Part shown: piece after piece, positions 48,540 through 53,200 of the stretch | How positions within the stretch are numbered: position 1 is the stretch's first letter | Layout of the letters: every line of letters starts with the position of its first letter | Assembly (NCBI RefSeq): GCF_018350175.1 | Contig: NC_058377.1 | Span: 61,628,001-61,692,000 of the forward strand | Length of the DNA stretch: 64,000 nt | DNA from: Felis catus | Taxonomy: Eukaryota | Reading direction: 5' to 3' | Program-made: the position numbers and the translations under genes | The notes under the pieces: generated by a model | What the model was told of the DNA's origin: nothing | Database searches by the model: none | Seen by the model: the letters and a program-made list of their open reading frames with translations, nothing else

Positions 48540-49060
48540 TGATCTCTTTAAGGGGGCAATATTTGAGCTGAGGTCACAATGGCATGAAGTTGCTGCCATG
48601 GGAAGATACTAAGAAAGAAAGGTTCTGGAAGTTGGAATAGCAAATGTAAAACTCTAAGGCAGGAAAACACACACCCTCCCACACATACGCAATGTACCTG
48701 TATATGCAGAGAGACAAATAGTGGGTCAATGGTGTTGACATGGAAATAGCAAAGAAAAGAGTGGTCGGAGATGATAGTAGAGGTAACACATGCTTACAGC
48801 TCTTCAGGATTAGCTTCATTATCTTGAGTAGGAAGCCATTAGAGAATTTTAATCATGATACTGATACCATTTCTAATCTGTTTGTACTCTTGTCTAGATT
48901 AATATTGCAAGAATATCTTGTTCCTTCCCAAACTGTTTTGCTCAAGTGGGTTTTATAGACTACTGAGAAATATGAGAGCCCATTCAAATATTAAATACTC
49001 TGATGTTGAAGGCATGCGTTTTGTGTGCATGCGTGTGTGTGTGTGTGTGTGTGTGTACGT
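48540..49060. repeat. Ancient duplicated block C', paralogous to 51610-52095
   Basis: Shared TATTTGAGCTG, TGGAATAG, GAAGCCATTA, AGATTAATATT-CAAGAATATCT, TGTTTTGCTCA and terminal (TG)n. Confidence 0.85.
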
Positions 49061-49689
49061 GTTCACAATCCATGAGGACAGCAAGAAAAAAGGGCTGATG
49101 GAGGGAAGATGTGCCCAGGGGAGAAATAAGAAAAAACACAGGAAAAGAATAAATCCTGCCATTTTAATTTAGAAAATAGAGAGATGTTTAAAATAGAGAA
49201 TAAGACAAATGCAGGATTCAAAAGTGTTAGATACTGTAAGTGTTTGCAGAAGGTGCTCTATACATGTGTTTTAAGTGTGTGAGTGACTGCAAGCGAATGG
49301 TGCATCAGTGACTCCTGTCTATTCTGCTCTGTTGTTATATGAGACTGTGGGACTCCTGAAAATGCCAAAGAAACTCCAGAGGCTGTTGAATTGGAGCCGC
49401 CATGACCTCATGTGCCCCATCCAAGAAGCCTACATTTGGGGAACTCTTCAGGGTGGGTGCATGCGGGAAAGATTCTGGGGAAGAAGCAGTAGTAAAGATC
49501 AGTGAAATGGGAGTAGAAAGGAGATTCAGTCTTTTGAAACTTATTATTTGTTGAGTCAGTTTGAGCTTTCTAGAGACTTCTTCAACACGCTGAGGTTTGA
49601 AATGATTGCCATGAGAGCAGTTGTGCTCTTTCCAGCTTCAAAGTAAGAGGTATCTGGGCATTTTTTTCCCTGTCAATAGAGACAGAGTC

Positions 49690-49785
49690 CTTTTTTCTTA
49701 CTCACCAGACAAGAAACTGGCTATCATCTGTGACTTCCTCACTATCTGTCAATCAATTTCCAAGTCCTGCTGAATCTTTGTCCTG
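49690..49785. repeat. Duplicated block B, paralogous to the eta 3' flank 40910-41000
   Basis: TCACCAGACA...CTGGCTATCRTCTGTGACTTC...TTCCAAGTCCTGC...ATCTTTG in both copies. Confidence 0.8.
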
Positions 49786-50047
49786 CCTGTTCTTTTCCCA
49801 ATCACTTCATCATCACATCAAGTTGCTACGGCTAGTCCCAAGTCTATACTTCTCTGATCGGGTATGCACCCACATATGTATCAATTTTATTAAAACTTAT
49901 TATTCATATTCCCCTCCTGAACAATAATTTTGACTGTTTCCCTGAACATAAAATAATACTAACTCCCTTCTCTTCATTACCTGGTCTCTCTAAATGCTTT
50001 CCAAAATGATTATATCATTCCTTTGTTTTGAAAAAACACCCATCTCC

Positions 50048-50260
50048 GGGGAGCCTGGGTGGCTCAGTCCGTTAAGATCACGATCTTGTGGTCTCTGACT
50101 TCAAGGCCCACAGCAGGCTCTGTGCTGACAGTTCAGAGCCTGGAGCCTGCTTTGGATTCTGTGTCTCCCTCTCTCTGCCCACCTCCCCCCGCCCCTCACC
50201 CCCCTCCCATACCTCTGTATCTTTCTCTCAAAAGTAAATAAACATTAAAAAGAAAATTTA
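50048..50260 (+). mobile_element. CAN-SINE
   Basis: Head, (CT)n and tail; flanking AAAAAAYACCCAT repeats. Confidence 0.9.
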
Positions 50261-53200
50261 AAAAAAATACCCATTCCTCAGAGGGACTCTGCTGTTCATG
50301 CCCAATTTGATACTTCATCCCCGCCCCCCCCACCTTGCTTCCCTCCTGCACCTATCCCTACTGGCTCCAACCAGTATGCAATTCACATCTCAAACCCCTC
50401 CCTGGCCCCCACCAGCAGCCTGCAATGACTTGAAGATGGTTGATGAGGCTTGGGTTAAAACAGTAAAAAGGAAGAATTGTAAATATCCTCCACATTAAGT
50501 GAAGAGTTGCAATAATGTATCATTCTGTTGTTCAGCCAATCTTTACAAGAAGAGGCCACCGCCCTTCTTGGTTTTCAAATCTCTTAAGATTATATTGGGC
50601 ACACAATTTAATACTTCTTAAAATAGGAACAATGTCTCTATCTAACATCAAAAGGAAGCAGAATAGGAAAAAATATGTAGATTAGGGCAGGATTGGATGT
50701 TACTCCAGTGTTTTTTAATCCATTTTATATAGTCTTTTAATCCATTTAGGTATTTTCCTTACTTACCTAAGTAACAGAATATTCCCTTGGAGTCATCTGG
50801 CAGCAGTCTGGAAGATTCCATGTATTTTCCAATTTGTCTCTGAGCACACAGGTGTTCAGGCTGGTTGGGGGAGAAGGGTGCCAATGTTTGTTCAATGCAG
50901 AGAGTAGTTGAAGATTCCGTGGGATGGGCTGCAGATTAAGAGAGTTGTCTCTGGCATGTGCTGGATCTACCCTTACTTGCTATGTTTAACTTCTCTTTAT
51001 TTCTAGTAAGCAGAAGCAATCTTCACTGACAGGATGCCACACACTACTGTCCCTGTAACCTATGGTACTTTGGTCTCAAGCATCTCAAGCAAGCATTTAT
51101 AGGACCAGACAGGACTCACTTTCAACGGGAAAGGGAATGGTTCATTTTATTTTATTTTTTCTCTCAGGGTCTATTACTCCTGCCTGTAGAGTTCTAGGAA
51201 ACCGGCTTGTTTGTTTCTCCCTAAGATTGCTCCTTAAACGAATAACACTGGAAAATCCACTTCCATGTTACTTACAGGATACTCTAAATTTTAAAGAACT
51301 CAACCTACTACATGAAAGCTGAATTTCTGCTACTAGAGAATTACTCTTTTCAAACATTCATTCTCTTGTGTTCTGAGACCCTCATTTAATATCTGTTTGT
51401 TGAATAACTGTCATCATTGCTCTAAGTACTGGAGACTTAAGATAAATGAGGAAGAGAAAAAAACTTTCCTCTTAACATTTATAACATGGCATAGAAGATA
51501 TAGAAAATGGATAATTAAGCCAATCTACAAAATAATTTCAGTTAATATCATTTGCTATGAAAAAATTAATATCTGGACCTAATGAGGAGCCATGATTACA
51601 CCAGGCAGGATGAGTCCCTCTGAGGAGGTAGTATTTGAGCTGGATCCAGAATGAAAAGAAGGAATTTGTCATGAGGAAATATTGGGATAAAAGGTCTGAA
51701 AGCTGGAATAGGGAATCCAAACCTCTGAGTTAGGTACAACAAACCCTTGGGATGCTGGAGATAAGAATAATGGGCTGGTGCAGGTAATATGTAAAGGTAA
51801 GAAGAAGCAGGAACTGTTGCAAAGGAAGCATTAAACCAAATAACTTAAGACTTGTCTTCAGTGGTAGAGTGTAAGAAGCCATTACGGGATTTTAATCTTG
51901 GCAATGACATAACCTCCTAACCTCTGTACTCATAGCCAGATTAATATTCCAAGAATATCTGGTCCATCACAACATTGTTTTGCTCACATGGCTTTTATTG
52001 CCTATTGACAACAATTAGTCCTTTTTTCATCTATTAAAAATCTGAGTCATCCAGACCTGTGTGCCTATGTGTGCACATGCACGTGTGTGTGTTAATTATG
52101 AAGTTGTTATCATGTAAATAGTCCTGAACTGGCAACTTCAAGATCAAAATCTAGACCCTTAAGGGGTAAAGAATGTATCTTCTGCCCACCACTCCATCAT
52201 CACCATCCTTGACCCCGGGACATGCAGAATCAGCTTAAAAGTTGAGGGCAAGAAAGAGAAAATGAGACTGATTAAAAATGCACATTTGTTGTTGACTGAG
52301 ACACTGACTGACAGACTGGGTAAAAGGCTTAGTACCACTAACAGCTCCTGTTTACTTTGCTGAAGGGCATAAAGAGAGGCTACTGAGGCTCAGAGACCAC
52401 TGTTGTTGACAACCTGCAACTATGTAATCATTGGTCTCTCATCTGGATCGTGGAGCCATAAACCCAAATTAGGAGGTAATTCAGAGGACAAATTCTGATC
52501 AACGTGTAGGGGCAATGAAATACCTAACTGATATGAGAGTTTGACTCAAGGCCTGGAGGTCTAGACTCCCTAAGTAAAATAACAACGACTCCCTCAAGAG
52601 TCATTCAGTTCTTGCCACTCCCACACAGGGGTCCCCAAGGTAGTGCACAGCCTCTTGTTAAGATCCCCCAGGGCTGGGAGATTTCAGTCATTCCCTACCA
52701 CCTCCTTCCTTCTCATCCACCCCAGCCAATCAGACACTGTTTCTTCCTCACTCAACCTCTGCTCCTCCTTCATGTTTTGCGGATCTCTCTGCTCTTCTTG
52801 GGTTTAGGCCATTATGTCTGTTCTTCTGAATTAGCATCTACATCTAATCTGCAATTTGGAATTCATTTTGTGTTCATTAAGCTGATAACTTCCCCCCACC
52901 CCAACTCCTATTCCTTGAGTCATTATAGTTCGAAGGATATTTATTGTTTACTCTTGCCAAAAACATAGTAATAGTTTTTATTTTTATAATCAAAGCCTTG
53001 GATTATCTAGTCTTTCCTAATACTCTATTTTACTGTCTCCTCTACTTCCAGAAAGGCTTTTCCTGCAAGAAATTAGCTCAAGCCCTAATTTACTGGTTTT
53101 AGACTATGAACCTTTGTTATTATCTCATCTGCTACATGAAGCCTTGGTCATTCTTCTCTCCCCCGAATTCATATAATATCTTAATGCCAGCTTTATTTTA

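What the first reader, a model, noticed from the sequence alone, without database searches (positions are those of the whole stretch)
48540..52095. Ghost of a deleted gamma-globin gene: flanks survive, gene body gone
Seen: three blocks occur twice, in the same order and orientation. Unit 1 is C (52095-51610), A (51340-50930), B (49785-49690). Unit 2 is C' (49060-48540), A' (45015-44450), the eta gene, B' (41000-40910). A'-B' are about 3.45 kb apart and contain eta. A-B are only about 1.15 kb apart and contain no globin exon, and each interval has one SINE. Known: gamma and eta are sister duplicates lying between epsilon and delta. Inference: a deletion of about 2.3 kb removed the gamma promoter and all three exons, and the non-coding flanks still map the ancestral duplication unit.
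Basis: partly seen in the sequence, partly recalled or inferred. Interest (0 to 1): 0.72.

Follow-up and report, generated by a model that had tools for sequence, protein, structure and literature searches.

The report
Lost eta-globin copy beside gamma fossil
In a cat-family beta-globin gene cluster, three old duplicated DNA blocks frame a gap where a globin gene is missing; the lost gene was likely a second copy of eta-globin rather than gamma-globin, because a broken globin remnant, likely gamma itself, still sits right next to it.

Summary
Observation confirmed and extended; interpretation only partly. This is a felid beta-globin cluster (epsilon, eta, delta, beta; minus strand). Blocks C, A and B are true paralogs (65-67% identity, K2P 0.45-0.48 each), and A extends to about -175 of the eta promoter. 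Its intron is neither epsilon- nor eta-type. Position, residues and exclusion make it most likely the gamma pseudogene (no gamma DNA was available to confirm this). The gene lost between A and B was therefore most likely a second eta copy. A black-rhino gene model shows a degraded eta between epsilon and intact eta, and horse and rhino HBH pseudogenes are listed in print. Best reading: an old gamma-eta block duplication followed by deletions. This is ordinary globin gene turnover, with a testable twist on the ancestral gene order.

The parts
53909..55275 (-). epsilon-globin (HBE), intact
   Evidence: exons and translation; protein equals the cat row of PMC5299747 supplement 3 by eye
51542..52092 (-). 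Block C, copy 1; its 3' two-thirds looks L2-derived (recalled, no repeat library available)
   Evidence: 66% to C' over 540 columns; the 5' part and the 3' part each find C' as best hit
51351..51541 (-). Short link between C and A; inferred site of loss of the first gamma copy
   Evidence: no significant partner (z at most 2.0); its role is inferred
50278..51350 (-). Block A, copy 1: paralog of the eta upstream region from about -1.3 kb to about -175
   Evidence: last 27 nt weak (z 3.0)
50043..50269 (+). SINE at the deletion junction, antisense to the globin genes, with a ~16-nt target-site duplication
   Evidence: flanks printed; the TSD suggests insertion after the deletion (inferred)
49591..49984 (-). 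Block B, copy 1: paralog of the eta 3' flank; looks L2-derived (recalled)
49057..49590 (.). Unassigned spacer holding the inferred duplication junction
   Evidence: no match to epsilon 3' flank or to DNA after B' (z 0.2 and 0.9)
48486..49056 (-). Block C', joined directly to the globin remnant through about 4 shared letters
48404..48487 (-). Pseudogene remnant, exon 2 residues 77-104 (28 codons, degraded); likely gamma (HBG)
47634..48403 (-). Remnant intron 2, about 770 nt, with GT donor and pyrimidine-CAG acceptor; neither epsilon- nor eta-type
   Evidence: other introns 2 in the window are 762-869 nt
47622..47633 (-). First four codons of exon 3 (LLGN); the rest of exon 3 is not detectable
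   Evidence: stop and 3' UTR tests not significant (z at most 2.3)
46820..47035 (-). Remnant 3' flank, weakly like the epsilon 3' flank (53446-53240)
   Evidence: 60% over 196 columns, z 5.0, 0 of 300 shuffles reached it
43915..45028 (-). Block A', eta upstream region (N gap 44657-44839)
42265..43689 (-). eta-globin (HBH), intact; CACCC, CCAAT, TATA-like and GATA motifs between 43917 and 43768
   Evidence: groups with carnivore eta; close to dog HBH in PMC5299747 supplement
41745..41980 (-). SINE in the eta 3' flank, opposite in orientation to the unit-1 SINE
40815..41241 (-). Block B'

Best explanation
The region is a fossil of an old tandem duplication in a felid beta-globin cluster: one copy keeps an intact eta gene and a truncated globin pseudogene that is likely gamma, and the other copy keeps only flanks around a 2.4-kb gap that likely held a second eta gene. 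Steps: (1) shown: C, A and B are duplicated and equally diverged. (2) Inferred: the duplicated unit ran from C (upstream of gamma) through gamma and eta to B, giving epsilon-[C gamma1 A eta1 B]-[C' gamma2 A' eta2 B']-delta. (3) Inferred: gamma1 was removed between C and A, possibly by recombination between same-orientation L2-like flanks. (4) Shown as missing sequence, inferred as a deletion: eta1 lost its promoter from about -175 and all exons, and a SINE later inserted at the scar. (5) Shown: the second-copy remnant lacks promoter, exon 1, intron 1 and half of exon 2, and is joined to C' through about 4 shared letters (microhomology repair inferred); most of exon 3 is not detectable. No function is expected; it is neutral debris.
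For: Equal divergence: K2P A 0.45 (0.39-0.52), B 0.48 (0.39-0.59), C 0.47 (0.40-0.58). A and B align to eta's flanks and not to epsilon's. Introns 2 of remnant, epsilon, eta and delta do not align with each other (6 of 6 pairs z below 3), so the C/A/B duplication is younger than those gene splits. Remnant not epsilon or eta by intron: of 69 intron read-through proteins (out of 241 held), those from other mammals hit the window's epsilon intron at E 4e-7 and eta intron at E 8e-10, but the best hit on the remnant was E 0.044. Residues: L78 in 7 of 15 gamma, 0 of 26 eta, 4 of 18 epsilon; H87 in 9 of 15, 2 of 26, 0 of 18; D80 in 15 of 15, 26 of 26, 1 of 18; profile log-likelihood gamma -49.5, eta -51.8, epsilon -55.6 (59 of the 120 proteins, classed by me from source names). 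It sits between epsilon and eta, where gamma belongs (PMC5299747). Walrus, seal, panda and horse keep an HBG pseudogene; horse and rhino each have HBH plus an HBH pseudogene (tip labels of PMC4041002 Fig S1). The black-rhino fused model P0002 reads epsilon, degraded eta, intact eta, adult exons; the degraded piece is in the eta clade at 100/99. The camel fused model P0012 has two eta-type exon-2 pieces, 34 of 50 identical.
Against: No gamma DNA from any mammal could be fetched, so gamma identity rests on position, exclusion and a weak residue signal (2.3 log units over eta). H77 favours eta (25 of 26 eta, 2 of 15 gamma), and the exon is 57 of 84 nt identical to eta against 53 of 84 to epsilon. 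The one gamma-type read-through protein (P0122, 16-residue tail) did not hit the remnant. PDB best hits were two adult beta chains ahead of gamma. The remnant's 3' flank and exon-intron border resemble epsilon weakly. No trace of gamma1 or of its deletion junction was found. The rhino pseudo-eta groups with perissodactyl eta (93, 85/85) and shares 4 of 6 perissodactyl-typical residues, which suggests a separate duplication or later conversion; an old origin is not rejected (p-AU 0.08). Gene order in P0002 and P0012 is inferred from automatic fused gene models.
Confidence: 0.6

Rival explanations
1. Eta-only duplication: the lost gene was eta, but the unit was C-A-eta-B and never held a gamma copy. 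Every embryonic unit once had a C-like L2 upstream; the copy in front of eta2 has decayed and C was matched to C' by conversion or chance of rates.
For: C runs into A with only 190 nt between them and no visible break. An L2-like piece at 46210-46072 upstream of A' matches C' (64%, z 7.4), and the 5' part of C has its second-best window hit at 46559-46495.
Against: C is far closer to C' (scores 4869 and 6725) than to the 46.5-46.0 kb pieces (1838, 1634). The 46559 hit was chosen after scanning the window and is not confirmed with C' (z 1.7).
Confidence: 0.2
2. One reading: C-A-B are gamma's own flanks from the gamma/eta duplication, gamma's body is deleted, and the remnant after C' is some other old paralog (epsilon-like or a fourth lineage).
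For: The unit lies next to epsilon, where gamma is expected. K2P 0.45-0.48 is old enough to be near the placental root on recalled calibrations. The remnant has weak epsilon likeness in its 3' flank (z 5.0).
Against: The remnant has D80 and H87, unlike 17 of 18 and 18 of 18 epsilon proteins. Epsilon read-through tails do not match it. The model needs an extra unknown gene lineage, while HBG pseudogenes are listed for other carnivores. A degraded eta lies in this slot in the rhino model.
Confidence: 0.12
3. The blocks are independent L2/MIR copies, chance matches or an assembly duplication.
For: Parts of C and B look L2-derived (recalled, untested). Copy number in the genome could not be checked, since no whole genome is held.
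Against: About 1.8 kb of collinear matches including eta promoter-proximal DNA; each block's partner scores 2.6 to 6 times the next hit in the window; 33-35% divergence excludes an assembly echo.
Confidence: 0.02

Closest known systems
HBG (gamma-globin) pseudogenes of walrus, Weddell seal, panda and horse (tip labels, PMC4041002 Fig S1)
   Same: A dead embryonic-type beta-like globin in a laurasiatherian that uses eta; position between epsilon and eta.
   Different: Here only the 3' part of exon 2, intron 2 and four codons of exon 3 remain. That figure lists no HBG pseudogene for cat or tiger. Orthology was not tested at DNA level.
HBH (eta) pseudogene of horse and rhinoceros (PMC4041002 Fig S1; fused model P0002)
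   Same: A second eta-type locus; in the rhino model it lies between epsilon and the intact eta, the slot of unit 1.
   Different: In rhino the exons survive; here they are deleted. The rhino copy groups with perissodactyl eta, so it may be a separate duplication or converted.
'Genomic revolving door' in the middle of the eutherian beta-globin cluster; en bloc duplications of bovids (PMC4041002)
   Same: Tandem duplication, inactivation and deletion of HBG, HBH and HBD.
   Different: The inferred block holds gamma and eta only and is visible only through non-coding flanks.
Five-gene ancestral eutherian cluster epsilon-gamma-eta-delta-beta (PMC5299747, PMC3161012)
   Same: All five loci are represented here if the remnant is gamma.
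   Different: A sixth, eta-type slot lies between epsilon and gamma.

Membership tests
beta-like globin pseudogene (remnant 48487-47622) | exon sequence homologous to beta-like globins | tested here: met
   tblastn E 1e-6; all 60 PDB hits shown are beta-type haemoglobin chains
beta-like globin pseudogene (remnant 48487-47622) | intron 2 at the conserved position, of usual length, with donor and acceptor | tested here: met
   about 770 nt vs 762-869; acceptor pattern 3 hits vs 0.01 expected
beta-like globin pseudogene (remnant 48487-47622) | inactivation | tested here: met
   no exon 1 (z at most 0.2) and no full exon 3 (z at most 0.7) in 49060-45030, no CCAAT or TATA motif before it
HBG (gamma) ortholog (remnant) | lies between HBE and HBH | tested here: met
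   coordinates; order from PMC5299747
HBG (gamma) ortholog (remnant) | coding sequence groups with HBG | tested here: inconclusive
   28 residues; gamma -49.5, eta -51.8, epsilon -55.6; H77 points to eta
HBG (gamma) ortholog (remnant) | intron 2 and flanks align with HBG of other mammals | not testable with these tools
   no HBG DNA found; a single short gamma read-through gave no hit; a resemblance to human HBG intron 2 is recalled only
HBE or HBH ortholog (remnant) | intron 2 of epsilon or eta type | tested here: not met
   DNA z 2.9 and 0.8; read-through tails best E 0.044, against 4e-7 and 8e-10 for the positive controls
HBH (eta) paralog (unit 1, deleted gene) | 5' and 3' flanks of eta type | tested here: met
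   A and B 65-67% to eta flanks, none to epsilon or delta flanks
HBH (eta) paralog (unit 1, deleted gene) | eta-type exons or intron 2 | not testable with these tools
   the gene body is absent
   no outgroup DNA; internal test: no B-like block after the remnant and remnant intron unlike eta's
L2 retroposon origin of C and B | match to the L2 consensus | not testable with these tools
   no repeat library; recalled resemblance only; Rfam gave 0 hits in 40-54 kb

The most novel reading that the evidence does not exclude
The ancestor of carnivores, perissodactyls and cetartiodactyls (perhaps of all boreoeutherians) had six beta-like loci, epsilon-eta1-gamma-eta2-delta-beta. The felid scar, the horse and rhino HBH pseudogenes and the camel's extra eta piece would be one locus, and the textbook five-gene ancestor would need a sixth slot.
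Probability: 0.35. Interest if true: 0.55.

Novelty: new member of a known kind. Interest (0 to 1): 0.35.

Why it matters
It corrects the fossil record of a model gene cluster. Felids probably did not lose gamma-globin cleanly but keep a truncated pseudogene. A gene-less eta-type unit upstream of it points to an old extra embryonic locus that coding-sequence surveys cannot see. If this unit is shared with horse, rhino and camel, the reconstructed ancestral cluster changes, and the shared deletion junctions become phylogenetic markers. No new function or mechanism is implied.

Tried and rejected
Outgroup DNA: no whole genome is held for the window. Metagenome contigs: 0 of 355 candidate stretches confirmed. 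GTDB: 2 of 245, one a 314-nt pig-like beta exon. Viral contigs: 1 of 16, weak. Plasmids: no match. Sequencing runs: none was listed with the library word PACBIO, so no reads were laid. Protein search with the remnant read through its stops: no candidate. Full-text search for one intron motif: 0 papers. Opazo et al. 2008 PNAS (PMC2529089) is not held. Four-fold sites as a clock: rejected, since epsilon-delta (16 of 54) is no larger than epsilon-eta (18 of 54). A published neutral-rate calibration was not found. SINE-SINE recombination as cause of the deletion: rejected, opposite orientations. L2-mediated crossover for the C-to-A join: not shown (z at most 2.0). Alternate-frame reading of the insert in whale model P0006 did not separate gamma, eta and epsilon. 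Stop codon and 3' UTR of the remnant: not significant. Earlier findings of the scan: nothing relevant in 5 look-ups.
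Full report
Setting. The window holds a beta-globin cluster on the minus strand: epsilon 55275-53909, eta 43689-42265, delta 39966-38630 and beta 35710-34565, with olfactory-receptor-like ORFs and L1-like DNA further 3'. The epsilon protein equals the cat row of a published alignment by eye (PMC5299747 supplement 3). Eta exon 2 is 100% identical to lynx and puma proteins and the eta protein groups with felid eta, so the source is a felid.

Observation. The three duplicated blocks are real. 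With one scoring scheme: A 67% over 873 columns, B 65% over 353, C 66% over 499 (without the CA repeat), shuffle z 60-100. In a both-strand scan of the window each block's partner far outscored all other hits, so they are not independent repeat copies, even though parts of C and B look L2-derived (recalled; no repeat library). A is longer than reported. It follows the eta upstream region to 43942 and weakly to 43915, about -175, where eta's GATA, CACCC, CCAAT and TATA-like motifs begin. Between that point and B, eta's unit spans 2674 nt and unit 1 spans 294 nt, most of it a SINE. No exon is detectable in unit 1. The two SINEs are opposite in orientation and 69% alike, and the unit-1 SINE has a target-site duplication, so it most likely inserted after the deletion.

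Directly after C' lies a degraded globin gene: 28 codons of exon 2 (residues 77-104; tblastn E 1e-6; DNA z 18-19), a donor, about 770 nt of intron, and an acceptor followed by LLGN that matches only delta and beta elsewhere in the window (0.01 expected). C and C' stay collinear up to 48486, where about four letters are shared between the C sequence and the first exon codons; microhomology repair is my inference. Exon 1 and the rest of exon 3 are not detectable.

Which gene is the remnant? Its intron 2 does not align with those of eta (z 0.8), epsilon (z 2.9) or delta (z 2.5). Among 69 proteins that read through into intron 2 (of 241 held), tails from other mammals matched the window's epsilon and eta introns at E 4e-7 and 8e-10, but the remnant at best at E 0.044. 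Residue counts in 59 of the 120 proteins (15 gamma, 26 eta, 18 epsilon; classed by me from names, reading 'epsilon-2/-4' as eta; fused, fragmentary, redundant and ambiguous rows left out; rows are related, not independent) favour gamma slightly: L78 and H87 point to gamma, D80 is against epsilon, H77 points to eta. It lies where gamma lies in eutherians, and other carnivores keep an HBG pseudogene. Against: the only gamma-type read-through did not hit, PDB ranked two adult beta chains first, and the 3' flank is weakly epsilon-like (z 5.0). From recall only, with no call behind it, the intron resembles human HBG intron 2. I put gamma at about 85%.

Which gene was lost in unit 1? A and B match eta's flanks and not epsilon's. 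Their divergence (K2P 0.45-0.48, overlapping intervals, one event) is low enough to align, while the four introns 2 are not alignable, so the duplication is younger than the remnant/eta split. If the remnant is gamma, unit 1 held a second eta. C, however, is a copy of what precedes the remnant, so the simplest unit is a gamma-eta block whose first gamma was also lost; no junction trace for that step was found, and an eta-only unit remains a rival. On recalled neutral distances (cat-dog about 0.2, cat-human about 0.35; no calibration found) the event predates the cat-dog split and may be near the laurasiatherian or placental root; the better-aligned cores (71-76%) suggest the younger end.

Outside evidence. 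Fig S1 of PMC4041002 lists HBH plus an HBH pseudogene for horse and rhino, and only HBE, HBH, HBD and HBB for cat and tiger (labels only, no topology or order). A black-rhino fused gene model (P0002) reads epsilon, degraded eta, intact eta, adult exons; the degraded piece is in the eta clade at 100/99 (24 rows kept, chimeric, fragmentary and frameshifted rows and most epsilon and gamma rows dropped). A camel model (P0012) holds two eta-type exon-2 pieces. Against a shared origin, the rhino pseudogene is sister to perissodactyl eta (85/85) and shares 4 of 6 perissodactyl-typical residues; the alternative is not rejected (p-AU 0.08).

Literature seen. PMC4041002: passages, supplement 2 whole and supplement 3 part 1 of 2; figures are not held. 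PMC5299747: passages, a supplement search and supplement 3. PMC3342878: passages and section 12; it states that human HBG1/2 have no ortholog in dog. PMC3161012, PMC3879965 and PMC6526914: passages. Searches gave no paper that describes a felid HBG remnant or this gene-less unit, judged from listings and the passages above. Opazo et al. 2008 (PNAS), older subscription papers and the figures could not be seen and may already show part of this.

Verdict. It belongs to a well-known kind of event in this cluster. Interest 0.35; 0.55 if the extra eta slot proves ancestral to several mammalian orders (probability about 0.35).

Noticed in passing
window 35253-35957 vs 39509-40222: The 5' parts of beta and delta (promoter through exon 2) are 97.5% identical while introns 2 and 3' flanks are barely alignable; fits the published felid HBB/HBD fusion and conversion (PMC4041002).
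   Followed up: partly
L001:1-314: A 314-nt contig in a bacterial genome record encodes a pig-like beta-globin exon 2; likely contamination of that assembly.
   Followed up: partly
window 46559-45975: A weak third copy of C-like, L2-like sequence upstream of eta's block A' (z 6.1 and 7.4 in local tests, chosen after a scan); may be the older gamma/eta paralogous flank.
   Followed up: partly
protein P0006 (whale fused model): A 36-residue insert between epsilon and eta is compatible with a globin exon 3 read in another frame (up to 25 of 35 positions, no null test, class not resolved); possible pseudogene exon between epsilon and eta in a whale.
   Followed up: partly
window 2377-3504 and 10601-11608 (minus strand): Two long ORFs that read like olfactory receptors 3' of beta-globin (family by recalled motifs, not scanned).
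   Followed up: no
window 1-1938, 16946-25620: L1-like ORF1/ORF2 fragments, about 70-85% alike, with five N gaps between 18445 and 21595 minus one elsewhere (four lie here); assembly is weak in this stretch.
   Followed up: no
window 44657-44839: The 183-N gap in A' faces only about 40 nt in A, so either the gap is overestimated or A' carries an insertion.
   Followed up: no
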